In this document: positions 5,611-43,880 of the stretch, one piece after another
Numbering within the stretch: the stretch's first letter is position 1
Layout: each line of letters starts with the position of its first letter
Assembly (NCBI GenBank): GCA_964558645.1
Contig: CAZLEV010000010.1
Span: 1 to 64,000, forward strand
Source of the DNA: an uncultured archaeon
GTDB taxonomy: Archaea > Asgardarchaeota > Thorarchaeia > Thorarchaeales > Thorarchaeaceae
DNA: 64,000 nt
Direction: 5' to 3'
Program-made: the position numbers and the translations under genes
Notes under the pieces: model-generated
Seen by the model: the letters and a program-made list of their open reading frames with translations, nothing else
The model's database searches: none
What the model was told of the DNA's origin: nothing

Positions 5611-5850
5611 TCACTTCTTGTACAGATAGAGCATCTGACCTACCAGGCTCTCACCATCGACTTCGCTCCTTGGTCGAACTGCCACATACGGCCGGTGTAC
5701 AGGTCCAAACACATCTTGTACTCTACCCACAGACTGCACACTCTTGTCAACAACCTGTGCGCCAATAGGCGGTATCTTCTCAGATCGCAAGATTATCGAA
5801 CCCCTGTGACTGATATGTGTGACCTTGCCCAATCTTCTCAATAGAAGCAC
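5611..5850 (-). CDS. gar1: H/ACA RNP protein Gar1
   Basis: RRLGKV.H, VGRVQDVFGPVHRPYV. Confidence 0.9.
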   Translation of the reverse strand: MLLLRRLGKVTHISHRGSIILRSEKIPPIGAQVVDKSVQSVGRVQDVFGPVHRPYVAVRPRSEVDGESLVGQMLYLYKK

Positions 5851-37312: not shown

Positions 37313-37378
37313 TTCCCTAAGAGTGACTACTTACACACGGCAAGCTTTAAAACCGCTGCAGCATTTTTTGTGTCTTGA

Positions 37379-37494
37379 TGGCGGCCATAGGCGTCGGTGA
37401 AATACCCGGTCTCTTACCGAACCCGGAAGTCAAGCCCGATGCCGTTGAAGGAACTGTGCGGTGCGCGAGCCCGTGACAAGCCTTCAAGCTGCCA
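37379..37494 (+). rRNA. rrf: 5S rRNA, stand-alone
   Basis: TGGCGGCCATA...ACCCGGTCTC..CCGAACCCGGAAGTCAAGC...GCTGCCA; TTTAAAA box about 30 nt upstream. Confidence 0.93.
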
Positions 37495-37698
37495 CATTCT
37501 TTCATTATCCACTTCATGCATTGTGATACGGGCTCCTAATCCACTTCAGATTTCTTCTTCCCGCCCTTAACCCCAATGGTTCAAGAGATATCCGAACCCA
37601 CATCGGAATCCATCTTTGTAGTCTACTAGGACGCACTTCTTTTTTTTGGCACTTTCATCTCCTAGATAGAAACGATTAAAGCGAAAACACCAGAGGTC

Positions 37699-38836: not shown

Positions 38837-39208
38837 TTGAAAATGGGCATTATATCTAGAGTAGTCGGACTAATTATCACCGGAGCAGGTGCTGTGATTC
38901 TCTTCTGGGGGATGAACAGTGATCCCTCGTATTCATTCATCTGGTTTCTAATAGGAATGGTCGTGATGTCAATTGGTTTCGGACTCATTAGCGGTGGAAA
39001 AGAACCTGAAGTTCCCGAGCCACCTCCACCTACAGTGACGGAGATTGTCTGTGACAATCCGGACTGCGATTTCAAGGAACTCCGTGATTTTGAAGACACC
39101 GACTATATCCTTAAGCCTGTTGACGCCGCCTGCCCCAAATGTGAGGGCTCAATGACCATCCAAGGCATCTACATAGTCAGAGAGAAAGAAGAAGAAATCA
39201 ACATCTAA
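38837..39208 (+). CDS. Two-TM protein with C-terminal zinc ribbon
   Basis: Two hydrophobic helices, C-x4-C and CPKC. Confidence 0.7.
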   Translation: MKMGIISRVVGLIITGAGAVILFWGMNSDPSYSFIWFLIGMVVMSIGFGLISGGKEPEVPEPPPPTVTEIVCDNPDCDFKELRDFEDTDYILKPVDAACPKCEGSMTIQGIYIVREKEEEINI

Positions 39209-40104
39209 TCTAGCTTGGTTAATGGGATTGCTCCTTCTTCTGAAATGTAGACGGTATGTTCTGACTGACTTACAGGACGTTCCTTCTTTTCGACAAGAAC
39301 GGGGTATCCCTTGATAGCCCTCTTCTTCAGAAGAATCCGAAACTTGCTCATGATGTCAATCTTATCATCTGTCGCTCCCACCCATCTTGATGCGAAAGGG
39401 AAAGGACCATATCGTTTTCTTAGATGCTGGCGAAGTTTCTCAGCCACCTCATTGTCTACTGGTCTATCAGATGCTGTATTTGCGAAAATGTAGATGTTCT
39501 TGCTCTGGTCTATACTTCTTCCACTGGTAGCAAAGGGCTCTATTGCATAATATTCTCCTTGTTCGATTCTTGTTGAATCGCGATTCCTTATATTCGGAAT
39601 CTTCTTCCCAGCATGAAGATTGAATCGCTCCAGATTATGCCCCGTAAGCTCCCTCACAGGTCGTAGCCCATAGGCATCAATTACGCGCTCTATTACCTGC
39701 CCTACCATGCTGACCTTCATACCCACTTTAATGGCTTTTATTGCCTCTTGTAAAGCATCATCAGTTGCTGCTACCATTCCCTCAAGGGACCCGTCAATAT
39801 CTACTGTTCGCGCGGTATCTGCAATATATCCGTCAATGTGTGTCCCGAGATCGATCTTCACAAGACCGAATTCTGGAATGACTGTTCTATCACCCTTTGG
39901 GGCGGTATAGTGAGCAGCAATATGATCTATCGAAACGTTGCAGGGAAAGGCAGGCTTCGCGCCCAGTTTGATGATGCACCTTTCTGCCTCACTGCATATG
40001 GATATCACTTTCTTTCCTGGCTCAACCATTTCACAAGTTTCCTGCAATACTCTCGCAGCAATCCTTCCAGCCTTCACACTCAGTGGATTTGGCTTATCCT
40101 GCAT
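39205..40104 (-). CDS. map: Type II methionine aminopeptidase
   Basis: AFPCN, AHYT, KIDLG, ADTA, TGH, AIEPF, EHT. Confidence 0.93.
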   Translation of the reverse strand: MQDKPNPLSVKAGRIAARVLQETCEMVEPGKKVISICSEAERCIIKLGAKPAFPCNVSIDHIAAHYTAPKGDRTVIPEFGLVKIDLGTHIDGYIADTARTVDIDGSLEGMVAATDDALQEAIKAIKVGMKVSMVGQVIERVIDAYGLRPVRELTGHNLERFNLHAGKKIPNIRNRDSTRIEQGEYYAIEPFATSGRSIDQSKNIYIFANTASDRPVDNEVAEKLRQHLRKRYGPFPFASRWVGATDDKIDIMSKFRILLKKRAIKGYPVLVEKKERPVSQSEHTVYISEEGAIPLTKLD

Positions 40105-40166
40105 GAAGTCACCAGACTGGATTCTGCAATTCAGACTTCTTAAGAGGTTCCATCTTGGCCTATGCG

Positions 40167-41090
40167 CTATTTTCCCTGCTTTGTGGTAACAATGCTCCTG
40201 TCTTCTCCTATAAACACAGTATGTTCCCATTGAGCAACCATTCCCTCTTTCCCCTCAGTCAGGACCGGATACCCTCGAATCACTCCTGCCTGAAGCAACC
40301 TTCGGAATGATGTACGTATACCCTCATCCATCCTAATCCATCTTGACGCGAAAGGCAGGCTTCTGAATCGTTTTCTCAGAGTGTTGCAAAGCTGCCTGTC
40401 CGAACGATTGAGCTTACACTTTGTATTCGAAACATTGGAGAAGATATAGACCTCTTCTCCTACCTTTATTGAACCGATTCCATCAGTTGCAAATGGTTCA
40501 ATCGCGTATATCTCTCCCTTCTGCACTCTCTCAGGTCCGGTTGTTCTCACATTTGGTATACTCTTTCCAGCATGCAATACCCATGGTTCCATCTGATGAC
40601 CCGAGAGCTGGTACACAGGATTCAGGCCTTCTTTTCTTATAGCTGTCTCGATTGCTGCTCCGATAGTTCCCAATCTAGTTCCAGGTCTGACCAAATCGAT
40701 GGCAGCAGTCAATGCATTCTGTACTGCGCTGATAAAGTCCGCATAAGAACCATCCATATCTACCGTAAGTGCTGTGTCAGACAGATGACCATTCACGTGG
40801 GCTCCAAGGTCGATCTTTATGAGCCCCCTATCGGGCAAGACCCGCAAATCTCCTTCAGGGCTTGTATAATGGGCCGCCTCTTCATTAGTCGATATATTGC
40901 AGGGAAAGGCATGACCTGTTGCACCATACTCGATGGTCTTGCTTTCTGCCATCTGGCATAATCTGAGCACACTAACGCCTGGCTTAGCCTCTTTGGCTAT
41001 CTCAGATATCACCTTGGACGCAATCTTTCCTGCCTGTAGCAAATCCGGATGTGGACGTATGGTCATGGGTAGACTCGAATCCTCACTCAT
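40167..41090 (-). CDS. map: Type II methionine aminopeptidase, second paralog
   Basis: AFPCN, AHYT, KIDLG, SDTA, SGH, AIEPF, EHT. Confidence 0.93.
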   Translation of the reverse strand: MSEDSSLPMTIRPHPDLLQAGKIASKVISEIAKEAKPGVSVLRLCQMAESKTIEYGATGHAFPCNISTNEEAAHYTSPEGDLRVLPDRGLIKIDLGAHVNGHLSDTALTVDMDGSYADFISAVQNALTAAIDLVRPGTRLGTIGAAIETAIRKEGLNPVYQLSGHQMEPWVLHAGKSIPNVRTTGPERVQKGEIYAIEPFATDGIGSIKVGEEVYIFSNVSNTKCKLNRSDRQLCNTLRKRFRSLPFASRWIRMDEGIRTSFRRLLQAGVIRGYPVLTEGKEGMVAQWEHTVFIGEDRSIVTTKQGK

Positions 41091-41198
41091 ATTCCGACTT
41101 AAGTTGTTGCTCTTGACATTCTTGGTATAAATCACCTTACTAAATCGAAAAGTAAATGTTCTTTGCCAGTGTTCTCTCAGTCAAGGAGCTTGTTGATT

Positions 41199-41870
41199 AT
41201 GAAATTCACATATCTTGGTCATTCTTCTTTCAAAATAGAATCAGAAGGGAAGACGGTTTTCGTTGACCCTTGGCTTGATGGTCCAACCTCCCCCCTCAAG
41301 ACCGATGACATAGAAGATGCAGATGTTGTGCTTGTCACCCATGATCATGGTGATCATGGATTTGCTGAGGCTTTGAGAATCTGTAGGAAGACCGGTGCCT
41401 ACTTCGTTGCAATCAATGAACTTGGCATCAAGGCGAAGGAGGAGAATGGTTTGGAGAATGTTCATACGCTGAACATTGGCGGAAGTGTTGAAATAGAGGA
41501 CATCAAGATTACACTTGTTCAAGCATTCCATTCCTGTGGTACTGGTGCGCCAACCGGATTCGTTGTATCTTTTCGAGATGGCTCATTCTATCATGCAGGC
41601 GACACAGGTGTTTTCTCGAGCATGAGCCTCATTGGCGAACTCTACTCGCCAGATGTAGCTCTTCTACCCATTGGTTCGTACTACGTAATGGACGAGGAGC
41701 AGGCAGCACTTGCTGTCAGCCTTCTAAATCCCAAACATGTAATTCCTATGCACTACGATACTTTTCCAGCAATTAAGGCCGATCCCGAGAAGTTCAAATC
41801 CTTAGTATCGAGAAGAAATCCCTCGACGACTGTGACAGTTCTCAGACCCGGAGAGGATGTGCAGTTATAG
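41199..41870 (+). CDS. Metallo-beta-lactamase-fold hydrolase (UPF0173)
   Basis: LGHS, THDHGDH, YHAGDT, PMHY. Confidence 0.9.
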   Translation: MKFTYLGHSSFKIESEGKTVFVDPWLDGPTSPLKTDDIEDADVVLVTHDHGDHGFAEALRICRKTGAYFVAINELGIKAKEENGLENVHTLNIGGSVEIEDIKITLVQAFHSCGTGAPTGFVVSFRDGSFYHAGDTGVFSSMSLIGELYSPDVALLPIGSYYVMDEEQAALAVSLLNPKHVIPMHYDTFPAIKADPEKFKSLVSRRNPSTTVTVLRPGEDVQL

Positions 41871-41880
41871 GACTCTGCAG

Positions 41881-42445
41881 AAGAAACAACAGTGTCGATG
41901 CCTGTGCCCCTACACACTAACTCTCGGCTTCATAGCTCCGGAAGGTCTTCCGCCTCCACCAAGCTGTCTCATGTTGGGTTCTTGTGGCATCGACGTGTCC
42001 GTCATTGTGCGAGACCAGGGTGACCCAAGGATCATCCGCAGACATCATCCGAGTCAACTGAGTCCGTTGTGGTTCGCGGTTATTGTCGTGACGGGTTGTG
42101 TTCGAAGCTGTCGCCCATCATTTGCGCAACACATCATCGTGGCAACTCAGTGCGCCCTCGAAGATGGGCTATTTGCTGAACATCACTATCTATGTCATTG
42201 TACCAATATTAGGGTTGCCAATTGGCGCCAAGTGGGCCCGAGCCCGGTTCCACTTCGTTGGTAACGACAACTTCAAATACTGAGGCTAGTTTCGAGGAAC
42301 TGTGAAGTCCTACCGTATCCATTCGGTCGGATTTCAAGACTTACCAAATCATAATCATTACATTGTCACGGGGCCTGAACTATGCGATCCGCAACTGGGT
42401 CGACAAGCGGCCGCCGAGCAGATCATGGGATTATTATCACTCATA
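41881..42445 (-). ncRNA. Large structured RNA, candidate multi-hairpin H/ACA RNA
   Basis: No credible ORF; three K-turn/K-loop hairpins each followed by ACA; TATA-like box upstream; U-rich 3' end. Confidence 0.6.
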
Positions 42446-42614
42446 GGATCATCATATCATTATCTCTTGAATAAGAACAGGCATATGAAGAGTTGCCAAC
42501 ACCATCGGCACATTACTCCGGCGTGGTGGGGACATCTTAGTCCGTGAGATTCGGCAGGGCAGAAACATCGCCCCAATAGGCAAGGCACGTGGCAGTAATC
42601 CAAAGGAGACGTGC

Positions 42615-43880
42615 ATAGAAATAGGAACTGATTTCGATCAGAGCACTGCGAAATATGTCATCAGGGCCAGAATCGATATTGACGGGGTTGTTGACAAGCC
42701 TGATGTTGTTGGGGCCCTATTCGGTCAGACAGAGGGACTACTTGGCGAAGACCTCGATCTCAGAGAGCTTCAGAGAACGGGCAGGATTGGCAGAATTCAG
42801 ATAGTTGTTCGTTCGGAGGGTGGAAGTAGCAGGGGTGAGATTGTCGTCCCCGTTTCGCTTGACAAGACCGCTACAGCCATCCTTGCTGCTTCAATCGAAA
42901 CCGTAGACAGGGTTGGACCTTGTAAAGCCAGCGTCACCCTTGACAAGCTTGAGGACATCCGTGGTGCCAAGAGGCGCAGAGTCGTCAGTCGTGCGATTAG
43001 CATCCTCAAAGGATGGGAAGAAGACATCTCACCTGGGTCAGATGAGATCACGCAGGCTGTTACCAAGGCAAAGAAGAGAACAGTCGCTAAATACGGCCCA
43101 GACAAGCTACCAACGGGTCCCGACTTTGACGAGAATCAAGAGATGATTCTTGTAGAGGGAAGAGCAGATATCATCAATCTCATGAAGAATGGTGTAACAA
43201 ATACCATAGCTGTCGAGGGAACCCATGTACCAAAGAGCATTGCAGACCTCACGAAAAGGAATGATAGTACAGTCATTGCCTTCTTAGATGGTGATCGTGG
43301 TGGAGACCTAATTCTACGAGAGCTGATGCAAGTGGCAAGGATTGATTTCATTGCTCGAGCGCCCGAAGGAAAAGAAGTCGAGGATCTCACCCGTCGTGAA
43401 ACAACAAAGGCTCTTCAGTCTAAGATACCTGCTGATCAGGCTCTGTCGTTGGTGCAAAGAAAGGTATCCGCGGACAGGAAACAGAAGGAATCTCGCAAAC
43501 CACGTACCAAGGCACGGTCACCTAGGCGTGACGAACCTTCAAAGAGGCGGAAGCCCGTGAAGTCTGAGAGAAAACCTCCTGAAAAACCAATGGTCCAAGA
43601 GCCATATCTTGAGAAGATGCATGAACTCAAGGAGTCTTTCAGAGCAGCTCTCTTCAATGATTCAATGGAGGTTGTTGCTGAGTGTGGTGTGGCCGAACTG
43701 ACGAAAGCTCTCAAGACGCATGACGCTGTTGATGCCATAGTTCTTGATGGAGTCGTCACTCAAAGACTCATTGATGCTGTAAGCGGTCTAGGTACAAGAC
43801 TCCTCATTGCAGCTGCTGTTGCTGATATCGACAGACCTCCCTCGAGTCTGAAGATAATCACATTCGATGAAATAGAGTAG
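42615..43880 (+). CDS. dnaG: Archaeal DnaG (exosome-associated, Toprim); apparent ATA start
   Basis: Frame upstream of ATG 43143 encodes KYVIRA...GVVDKPDVVGALFGQTEGLLG..LDLRELQRTGRIGRI; also VEGRAD and DGDRGG. Confidence 0.93.
   Translation: MEIGTDFDQSTAKYVIRARIDIDGVVDKPDVVGALFGQTEGLLGEDLDLRELQRTGRIGRIQIVVRSEGGSSRGEIVVPVSLDKTATAILAASIETVDRVGPCKASVTLDKLEDIRGAKRRRVVSRAISILKGWEEDISPGSDEITQAVTKAKKRTVAKYGPDKLPTGPDFDENQEMILVEGRADIINLMKNGVTNTIAVEGTHVPKSIADLTKRNDSTVIAFLDGDRGGDLILRELMQVARIDFIARAPEGKEVEDLTRRETTKALQSKIPADQALSLVQRKVSADRKQKESRKPRTKARSPRRDEPSKRRKPVKSERKPPEKPMVQEPYLEKMHELKESFRAALFNDSMEVVAECGVAELTKALKTHDAVDAIVLDGVVTQRLIDAVSGLGTRLLIAAAVADIDRPPSSLKIITFDEIE

What the first reader, a model, noticed from the sequence alone, without database searches (positions are those of the whole stretch)
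41881..42445. ~560-nt structured RNA made of K-turn hairpins followed by ACA boxes: candidate very large H/ACA-type RNA
Seen: a gap with no credible ORF in an otherwise gene-dense window. On the minus strand there is a TATA-like TTATTCAAG (~42470) and a TTGTTTCTT end. Hairpin A (42109..42169) has a GCCCATC/GATGGGC stem, internal loop, CTGA...ATGATG K-loop, then ACA. Hairpin B (42006..42077) has GCGA-ACCA/TGGT-C-TCGC, a TTGA...ATGATG K-loop, then ACA. Hairpin C (41893..41994) has CGATGCC/GGCATCG, a TGGA/ATGAAG K-turn, then ACA 3 nt before the U tract. Further stems ending in ACA lie upstream, plus a long-range TTGTCGT/ACGACAA helix (42264..42270 with 42083..42089). A and B share ACTSAGTTG..GATGATGT..TGCG..ATGAT, suggesting internal duplication. 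Known: archaeal H/ACA RNAs have 1-3 L7Ae-binding K-turn hairpins and are much shorter. Inference: a polycistronic guide or a chaperone-like long H/ACA RNA. I could not match the pockets to rRNA from memory.
Basis: partly seen in the sequence, partly recalled or inferred. Interest (0 to 1): 0.8.

Follow-up and report, generated by a model that had tools for sequence, protein, structure and literature searches.

The report
Three-hairpin H/ACA pseudouridine guide RNA

Summary
They form one minus-strand RNA of about 295 nt (window 42181..~41885), not about 560 nt. It has its own BRE/TATA-like promoter and an oligo-T end.

A covariance model built from it finds one full-length copy in 62 of 151 genomes of the phylum. 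Of 71 base pairs, 61 show compensatory changes. Each hairpin follows the archaeal H/ACA rules: lower stem, pocket, GA stem of about 10 layers with a K-turn, and an ACA 14-16 nt below the pocket.

In five genomes, the best-matching uridine of the organism's own 23S rRNA is the same homologous site for every pocket (15 of 15). In E. coli numbering these sites are U2496, U2586 and helix 69 (U1915/1917). The three motifs of Pab40/Pf7/Afu-4 (Rfam HgcG, RF00064) have the same targets in the same order.

My model also hits inside the RF00064 match of an Archaeoglobus genome. RF00064 itself does not detect the Asgard RNA. The difference from the known RNAs is an extra closing helix around each hairpin, so the ACA lies in an internal loop.

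The upstream half of the finding (42182-42445) is conserved only within the family and remains unexplained. The scan has already found this RNA family in other Asgard genomes, and their follow-ups reached the same reading.

The parts
42203..42229 (-). Promoter-like element: palindrome GGCGCCAATTGGC (42229-42217), then AACC-CTAATAT (TATA-like, 42212-42206), about 28 nt before the RNA start
   Evidence: Conserved at a fixed distance in 20 family loci and 32 Thorarchaeota spacers. It resembles the 5S rRNA promoter of this genome, GGCAAGCTTTAAAA, at the same distance. Distant relatives have TTTTTATC or TTTAAAA 25-35 nt before the model start. The transcription start is inferred, not measured.
41885..42181 (-). 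The whole three-motif H/ACA guide RNA (model match 41889-42181); the oligo-T tract TTGTTTCTT follows at 41890-41881
   Evidence: Model R1 scores 276 bits here. It finds one full-length copy in 62 of 151 genomes of the phylum.
42100..42181 (-). Unit A with its closing helix. Outer helix 42181-42175 / 42108-42100. P1 42169-42163 / 42119-42113. 5' guide UUCGAGG 42162-42156. K-turn GA 42148-42147 and 42135-42134. 3' guide GCAAA 42125-42121. ACA 42111-42109.
   Evidence: The 3' guide starts 14 nt before the ACA. The distance from GA to ACA is 22 nt across the phylum. The guides pair with 23S CUUGC-UN-CCUCGA, top hit at U2630 of this genome's LSU (E. coli U2496). The outer helix covaries within the family.
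41999..42095 (-). Unit B with its closing helix. Outer helix 42095-42089 / 42004-41999. P1 42077-42070 / 42017-42009. 5' guide CAACGGAC 42069-42062. K-turn GA 42055-42054 and 42033-42032. 3' guide CACCC 42022-42018. ACA 42008-42006.
   Evidence: The 3' guide starts 14 nt before the ACA. The top hit is U2720 of the own LSU, GGGUU-UA-GACCGUUG (E. coli U2586). All 7 pairs of the outer helix show compensatory changes, with 97% of cells paired (helix 3).
41894..41994 (-). Unit C with its closing helix. Outer helix 41994-41986 / 41902-41894. Interrupted lower stem CCC..CAU / GUG..GGGG (about 41978-41971 / 41915-41907; CCC-GA-CAC / GUG-CU-GGG in most of the family). 5' guide GAGAC 41970-41966. K-turn GA 41956-41955 and 41931-41930. 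3' guide GUUAGU 41921-41916. ACA 41905-41903.
   Evidence: The 3' guide starts 16 nt before the ACA. The top hit is helix 69 of the own LSU, GACUAAC-UAUGA-GUCUC at U2050. Guide GAGAC goes with rRNA GUCUC here, and guide GAGAG with rRNA CUCUC in four other lineages. Column 403 pairs with its intramolecular partner in only 12 of 30 sequences. All 9 pairs of the outer helix show compensatory changes (helix 8).
42240..42460 (.). Upstream half of the reported finding. It holds family-specific conserved blocks: S2 (UGAUGAU..GAAUGAUAAU, ~42455-42420), S3 (..UGUGAU.AUGAUGAUU, ~42370-42335) and S4 (GUAUUUGAAGNUGUCGYUA, 42280-42262), with variable hairpins between them. It is not part of the conserved guide RNA, and its function is unknown.
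   Evidence: It is conserved in Thorarchaeota spacers only and absent upstream of the RNA in 18 distant relatives. It has no shared ORF, no Rfam hit, and no rRNA complementarity above chance.

Best explanation
Window 42181..~41885 (minus strand) encodes a box H/ACA guide sRNA with three guide units. Each unit is expected to bind one set of L7Ae, Cbf5, Nop10 and Gar1. Each unit would place one uridine of 23S rRNA in the Cbf5 active site for conversion to pseudouridine.

The predicted targets, in E. coli numbering, are:
- Unit A: U2496, in the peptidyl-transferase ring.
- Unit B: U2586.
- Unit C: U1915 and/or U1917, in the loop of helix 69.

The RNA is the Asgard (Thorarchaeota) homologue of the three-motif sRNA Pab40/Pf7/Pho40/Afu-4 (Rfam HgcG). 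It overlaps in function with both stem-loops of Haloferax sR-h45. The peculiarity of this lineage is that each unit is closed by an additional covarying helix, so the ACA box lies in an internal loop.

Shown here: the structure, the geometry, the guide-target complementarity, the homology and the presence of the protein genes. Inferred: expression, RNP assembly and the modifications themselves.
For: 1. Conservation and covariation. One full-length copy occurs in 62 of 151 genomes of the phylum, including 26 of 26 in the family. Of 71 pairs, 61 show compensatory changes and 89.8% of cells are paired, against 35-42% when partners are slid.

2. H/ACA rulers. The literature gives an ACA 14-16 nt from the pocket-closing pair, a GA stem of about 10 layers and a lower stem of 7-9 bp (PMC7991803; PMC4652768). 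Here the 3' guides start 14, 14 and 16 nt before the ACA. The distance from the K-turn GA to the ACA is 22, 23 and 24 nt and stays nearly constant across the phylum.

3. Targets. In five genomes and for all three units, the best-scoring U of the organism's own LSU is the same homologous site, 15 of 15. For G000 the scan covered LSU, SSU and 5S, 1103 uridines in all. At site A the target reads CUUGC-U-N-CCUCGA in every LSU, with the U invariant and N being U, A or C.

4. Guide and target change together. In unit C, guide GAGAC goes with rRNA GUCUC in this genome, and guide GAGAG with rRNA CUCUC in four other lineages. In unit B, guide CAACGG goes with CCGUUG here, and guide CGACGG with CCGUCG in G060.

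5. Same targets and order as the known RNA. Pab40 motif 1 targets Pab U2588. Motif 2 of Afu4/Pf7 targets the equivalent of Pab 2678. Motif 3 targets U2016 in stem-loop 69 (PMC2377435). [quoted passage not shown] Taking those as Psi2457, 2580 and 2605 (my knowledge of E. coli) gives Pab numbering = E. coli + 92 in domain V. Haloferax sR-h45 SL1 makes Psi2605, which is E. coli 2586, and SL2 makes Psi1940/1942 in helix 69 (PMC7075261).

6. Homology. In Archaeoglobus sp. JdFR-41, RF00064 hits C6:1546-1819 at 82 bits. My Asgard model hits inside that match, at 1612-1706, with E 2.7e-4. The Archaeoglobus RNA carries the same or near-same 3' guides: GCAAG, AACCC and GUUAAU.

7. Protein partners. Genes for Cbf5, Nop10, Gar1 and L7Ae are all present in the genome.

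8. Genomic context. In two other lineages the RNA lies next to the 23S gene.
Against:
- No pseudouridine mapping exists for this organism.
- RF00064 and all other Rfam models give no match here even at E <= 10.
- Unit B pairs weakly in this family: 4 bp on the 3' side, and on the 5' side 1 bp plus 6 bp with a constant mismatch opposite E. coli A2589. In the G026 lineage its 5' guide does not match under my scoring scheme.
- Unit C leaves five target bases unpaired (UAUGA). The Haloferax precedent leaves four (UNUN).
- An ACA held in an internal loop by a helix that starts 0-1 nt after it is not the described substrate of the Cbf5 PUA domain.
- Minimum free energy is not better than for shuffled sequence.
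Confidence: 0.9

Rival explanations
1. One RNA of about 560-700 nt. The family-specific upstream blocks S2-S4 (42460-42240) would be a 5' domain of the same transcript, for example a K-turn-rich or C/D-like part fused to the H/ACA part, as Pab21 is fused to a C/D sRNA in Pyrococcus.
For: - The spacer between the RNA and dnaG has a constant length of 380-460 nt in 19 of 20 loci and holds conserved blocks rich in UGAUGA.
- By my reading of the aligned sequences, hairpins between the blocks vary in sequence while keeping their pairing, with U.G pairs on the minus strand.
- PMC2377435 reports an H/ACA + C/D co-transcript for Pab21.
Against: - A conserved BRE/TATA-like element lies between the two parts at promoter distance from unit A.
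- In 18 distant relatives a TATA box sits directly before the RNA and no UGAUGA-rich domain is present.
- RNAalifold finds no consensus structure for the spacer.
- There is no rRNA complementarity above chance.
- The proposed TATA at 42470 and the long-range helix are not conserved.
Confidence: 0.12
2. An H/ACA-like RNP scaffold that no longer guides modification. The pockets would be closed or used for another purpose, such as rRNA folding in the manner of snR30/U17.
For: - In units B and C the pocket strands can partly pair with each other.
- The ACA is enclosed by an outer helix.
- The pocket sequences are almost invariant across the phylum.
Against: - The invariance is explained by the invariant rRNA targets.
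- All three pockets rank their canonical target first in five genomes.
- Guide and target change together in unit C.
- The homologous RNAs are proven guides in vitro or in vivo (PMC2377435, PMC7075261).
Confidence: 0.05
3. Another K-turn RNA (a C/D box sRNA cluster, or an SRP or RNase P variant), or a coding or pseudogene remnant.
For: UGAUGA- and CUGA-like motifs are present. A 135-codon ORF (41857-42264, + strand) overlaps the region.
Against: - RNase P RNA and SRP RNA lie elsewhere in the genome.
- The order of motifs within each hairpin is that of a K-turn in an upper stem, not C...D.
- The ORF has no Pfam match and is not conserved.
- Compensatory changes mark RNA helices.
Confidence: 0.02

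Closest known systems
Pab40 / Pf7 / Pho40 / Afu-4 = HgcG (Rfam RF00064), the three-motif box H/ACA sRNA of Thermococcales and Archaeoglobus
   Same: Both have three H/ACA motifs in one RNA, each with a K-turn and an ACA/ANA box. The three 23S targets are the same and come in the same 5'-to-3' order: E. coli U2496, U2586 and helix 69 (PMC2377435). The 3' guide sequences are the same or nearly so. My model cross-hits the Archaeoglobus RF00064 locus.
   Different: - RF00064 does not detect the Asgard RNA.
- The Asgard RNA is longer, about 295 nt against 234 nt for the Pab40 transcript (PMC4652768).
- Each unit is enclosed by an extra covarying helix, so the ACA lies in an internal loop. In the two Archaeoglobus sequences the motifs follow each other directly.
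- In lineages outside this family, the closing element of unit A looks like a fourth K-turn (my reading, not tested statistically).
[quoted passage not shown]
   Same: SL1 guides Psi2605 (E. coli 2586), as unit B is predicted to. SL2 guides Psi1940/1942 in helix 69 from a pocket that leaves more than two target bases unpaired, as unit C would (PMC7075261).
   Different: It has two stem-loops separated by a 56-nt linker and no unit for U2496. I made no sequence comparison with it.
Eukaryotic H/ACA snoRNAs that guide the same sites (U19 in human and snR191 in yeast for helix 69)
   Same: The helix 69 target uridines are the same (PMC7075261). PMC2377435 states that the Pab 2588 and 2016 equivalents are pseudouridines in eukaryotes.
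   Different: Eukaryotic snoRNAs have a hairpin-hinge-hairpin-tail layout, lack K-turns and bind Nhp2 instead of L7Ae (PMC7991803). Homology was not tested.

Membership tests
Archaeal box H/ACA guide sRNA | ACA (ANA) box after each lower stem | tested here: met
   ACA at 42111-42109, 42008-42006 and 41905-41903. Across 30 sequences the box is ACA in most and AUA or AAA in a few. Unlike the canonical layout, a helix follows 0-1 nt after the box.
Archaeal box H/ACA guide sRNA | [quoted passage not shown] | tested here: met
   Tandem G.A motifs are conserved, with a variable 3b.3n position and covarying small C-stems. Counted on the sequence, the GA stems have 9-10, 8-11 and 10-11 layers. The rule comes from PMC4652768.
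Archaeal box H/ACA guide sRNA | 14-16 nt from the pocket-closing pair to the ACA | tested here: met
   14, 14 and 16 nt in this window. The distance from GA to ACA is nearly constant across the phylum.
Archaeal box H/ACA guide sRNA | Two-sided complementarity to rRNA flanking an unpaired U-N | tested here: met
   The top-ranked site is the same in five genomes for all three units. Units A and B leave U-N unpaired. Unit C leaves 5 nt unpaired, which is atypical; the Haloferax SL2 precedent leaves UNUN.
Archaeal box H/ACA guide sRNA | Partner proteins Cbf5, Nop10, Gar1 and L7Ae encoded in the genome | tested here: met
   all score above the curated cut-offs.
Archaeal box H/ACA guide sRNA | Expressed as a stable sRNA; pseudouridine present at the targets | not testable with these tools
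Rfam HgcG (RF00064) | Match to the family covariance model | tested here: not met
   No Rfam match in 41500-42800 even at E <= 10.
Rfam HgcG (RF00064) | Detectable homology to bona fide members, with the same motif order and targets | tested here: met
   R1 hits inside the RF00064 match of Archaeoglobus sp. JdFR-41 at E 2.7e-4, covering unit B only. The 3' guides are shared. The targets are the same.

The most novel reading that the evidence does not exclude
The extra closing helices are conserved across the phylum. In some lineages the base of unit A also looks like a fourth K-turn. Together these could define a distinct Asgard way of building multi-unit H/ACA particles. Each unit would be an autonomously folded, clamped module whose ACA box is presented from an internal loop. 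That could imply a changed Cbf5 PUA-RNA contact, or a processing or assembly role for the clamps. Separately, the Thorarchaeota-specific upstream K-turn-like blocks could be an undescribed companion sRNA.
Probability: 0.3. Interest if true: 0.45.

Novelty: new member of a known kind. Interest (0 to 1): 0.3.

Why it matters
This result fills an annotation gap. A single-copy guide RNA present across the phylum is missed by Rfam in Asgard archaea, so their pseudouridylation machinery looks guide-less in standard annotation.

It also shows that the three most conserved guided pseudouridines of the large-subunit core (helix 69, and E. coli 2496 and 2586) are specified by one inherited three-unit RNA in Euryarchaeota and in Asgard archaea. 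That supports an ancient origin for these sites, which eukaryotes also modify through H/ACA snoRNAs.

The clamped architecture is a modest structural novelty that can be tested in vitro. The kind of molecule and its mechanism are not new.

Tried and rejected
- First target scans with pocket borders taken from the predicted helices found no convincing target. That briefly suggested a non-guide RNA. Setting the pocket top by the 14-16 nt ruler resolved it.
- Unit C against a site near LSU 2314 gave good pairing on the 3' side only. Helix 69 scored higher and is supported by a compensatory change, so I rejected the first site.
- I expected full guide-target covariation in unit B. It holds for G000 and G060 but not for G030 and G046.
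- SRP RNA and RNase P RNA identities are excluded.
- A C/D guide reading of the spacer is not supported: there is no rRNA complementarity above chance, 1.7 hits expected in shuffles.
- RNAalifold on three different spacer alignments gave no structure, so I claim no structure for the upstream half.
- Single-sequence MFE z-scores were uninformative.
- PMC3138572 (Blaby 2011) is not held; I used PMC7075261 instead.
- A literature search for Asgard H/ACA RNAs found no paper.

Full report
**What is at the locus.** The gap lies between a convergent MBL-fold gene (41163-41870, + strand) and a divergent dnaG. The dnaG frame is open from 42487, and its conserved N-terminus begins near 42640. No ORF is shared among 20 related spacers. 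The local ORFs have no Pfam match above cut-off (one sub-threshold match, E 0.19). Rfam gives no match in 41500-42800 even at E <= 10. RNase P RNA and SRP RNA lie on other contigs.

**Extent of conservation.** A blastn search of the gap against 40 relatives shows full-length identity only within the genus. In 17 further genomes of the family, only window ~42231-41880 matches, at 67-76% identity. Synteny is kept in all 20 loci: MBL gene, then the RNA, then a spacer of about 400 nt, then dnaG. Relatives are named Candidatus Thorarchaeota.

**Structure.**
- Alignment and RNAalifold give three units, each a hairpin with a K-turn.
- A covariance model (R1) finds exactly one full-length copy in 62 of 151 genomes of the phylum. 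This includes 26 of 26 genomes of the family and the small 1.3-1.4 Mb genomes.
- On 30 diverse sequences, 61 of 71 pairs show compensatory changes. 89.8% of cells are paired, against 35-42% when the partners are slid.
For units B and C, all 7 and all 9 pairs of this helix show compensatory changes across the phylum. For unit A the helix is clear within the family.
- The conserved ACA therefore lies in an internal loop between the lower stem and the outer helix.

**Transcript ends (inferred).**
- An element GGCAA-N2-CTAATA(T/A) lies 28 nt before the first helix. It is conserved at a fixed distance in the family.
- It resembles the promoter of this genome's 5S rRNA gene.
- In 18 distant relatives a TATA box (TTTTTATC, TTTAAAA or TTCAAATA) sits 25-35 nt before the model start, and in most of them a T-rich tract follows the end.
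- The RNA is therefore a unit of about 295 nt, from 42181 to about 41885.

**Is it an H/ACA RNA?**
- The literature rules are: ACA 14-16 nt from the pair that closes the pocket, a GA stem of about 10 layers up to the sheared G.A pairs, and a lower stem of 7-9 bp (PMC7991803; PMC4652768).
- In this window the 3' guides begin 14, 14 and 16 nt before the ACA.
- The distance from the K-turn GA to the ACA is 22, 23 and 24 nt, and it is nearly constant across the phylum despite sequence change.
- Genes for Cbf5, Nop10, Gar1 (inside this window, 5623-5835) and L7Ae are present.

**Targets.** My first scans failed because I set the pocket borders from the predicted helices. With the ruler-based borders, the matches are as follows.
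- Unit A. Guides UCGAGG and GCAAG pair with 23S 5'-CUUGC-UN-CCUCGA-3'. This sequence is present in all five LSUs examined. The U is invariant, and N is U, A or C.
- Unit B. Guides (A/C)ACCC and ACGGRC pair with GGGUU-UA-GACCGU.
- Unit C. Guide GUUAGU pairs with the 5' side of helix 69, and GAGAC or GAGAG pairs with its 3' strand. The bases UAUGA or UAUAA are left unpaired.

A uniform scan was run on each organism's own LSU. For G000 it also covered SSU and 5S, 1103 uridines in all. It ranks the same homologous uridine first in 15 of 15 cases.

Guide and target change together in unit C. This genome has guide GAGAC with helix 69 GUCUC, and four other lineages have GAGAG with CUCUC. The corresponding column pairs with its intramolecular partner in only 12 of 30 sequences, as expected for a guide base rather than a helix base. 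In unit B the co-variation is only partial.

**Comparison with known RNAs.**
- In E. coli numbering the sites are U2496, U2586 and U1915/1917. I derived this numbering by aligning to the E. coli sequence from memory. It agrees with the published equivalences given below.
- PMC2377435 describes Pab40, Pf7, Pho40 and Afu4 as three-motif H/ACA sRNAs. Motif 1 targets Pab U2588. Motif 2 of Afu4/Pf7 targets the equivalent of Pab 2678, a position that is pseudouridine in Haloarcula. Motif 3 targets Pab U2016, in stem-loop 69.
[quoted passage not shown] With Psi2457, 2580 and 2605 for those enzymes (established E. coli knowledge, not stated in the paper passages read), Pab numbering is E. coli + 92. 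So Pab 2588 is E. coli 2496, and Pab 2678 is E. coli 2586.
- PMC7075261 shows that Haloferax sR-h45 SL1 makes Psi2605. Its position 2603 equals Haloarcula 2619, so 2605 is E. coli 2586. SL2 makes Psi1940/1942 in helix 69.
- PMC4652768 equates Pab40 with Rfam HgcG, RF00064.
- Homology test: in Archaeoglobus sp. JdFR-41, RF00064 matches C6:1546-1819 at 82 bits. My Asgard model matches 1612-1706 inside it, through unit B, at E 2.7e-4.
- The two Archaeoglobus RNAs carry the 3' guides GCAAG (GCGAG in the UBA230 genome), AACCC and GUUAAU/GUUACU. Their three motifs follow each other directly, without outer helices.

**The upstream half of the finding (42182-42445).**
- It is not conserved outside the family.
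- Within Thorarchaeota it holds conserved blocks rich in UGAUGA, variable hairpins, and a block GUAUUUGAAGNUGUCGYUA.
- I found no shared ORF, no Rfam match, no consensus fold and no rRNA complementarity.
- It may be a separate K-turn-bearing sRNA, a 5' extension of a precursor, or dnaG control DNA. On the + strand, the last block reads like a BRE/TATA pointing at dnaG. I leave it unexplained.

**Verdict.** This is a real, well-supported three-unit H/ACA guide RNA. It is a divergent member of a known family that databases miss, with an added closing helix around each unit. Other follow-ups in this scan reached the same reading on other Asgard genomes. I read those notes only after my own analysis was complete.

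Noticed in passing
window 42487-43145 (+): The dnaG frame is open from 42487 and encodes the conserved N-terminal domain ([32 protein letters not shown]). It contains no ATG, GTG or TTG before 43143. GGAG at ~42605-42608 precedes in-frame ATA codons, which suggests a non-canonical start.
   Followed up: partly
window 42240-42460 (either strand): Thorarchaeota-specific conserved blocks lie between the guide RNA promoter and dnaG. They are UGAUGAU/GAAUGAUAAU, UGUGAU-AUGAUGAUU, a hairpin followed by UACA, and GUAUUUGAAGNUGUCGYUA. The spacer length is constant at ~380-460 nt. There is no ORF, no Rfam hit and no rRNA complementarity.
   Followed up: partly
window 42217-42229 and 42586-42591: Two conserved palindromes. 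GGCGCCAATTGGC lies just upstream of the guide RNA TATA-like box. CACGTG lies about 10 nt upstream of the dnaG Shine-Dalgarno sequence. Both could be transcription-factor binding sites.
   Followed up: no
L017, L018, L020 (family loci); L070 (G025): Some genera have lost or replaced single units. In L017 unit A is reduced to a short hairpin plus ACA directly after the promoter element. L018 and L020 lack a recognisable unit A. The G025 RNA is only 201 nt and lacks unit B.
   Followed up: partly
G060:C1:1836803-1840347; G030:C1:890243-897271: Outside Thorarchaeota the guide RNA lies next to its target gene. In G060 it is 160 nt downstream of 23S. In G030 it is 3.6 kb upstream of 23S.
   Followed up: no
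L054, L057, L063, L065-L068 (5' end and the segment after the ACA of unit A): In non-Thor lineages the closing element of unit A reads GC-AAU-GA-AGGA ... UCC-(A/U)GA-GC. That is a C/D-like terminal K-turn, and it would give the RNA a fourth L7Ae site.
   Followed up: partly
G000:C4:209083-210453: The cbf5 gene (209494-210453, -) lies directly next to the RNase P RNA gene (209083-209421, -).
   Followed up: no
G000:C10:124412-126689; window 37377-37497; G000:C15:1323-4412; L071: The 16S, 23S and 5S genes are unlinked. The 16S match spans 2278 nt, so it has an insert of about 800 nt. The G026 23S sequence diverges right after helix 69 (UUAA|CGGGAAAUC...), which suggests an intron there.
   Followed up: no
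window 39205-41135 (-): Two tandem, overlapping paralogous genes of the methionine aminopeptidase / M24 type (341 and 322 aa).
   Followed up: no
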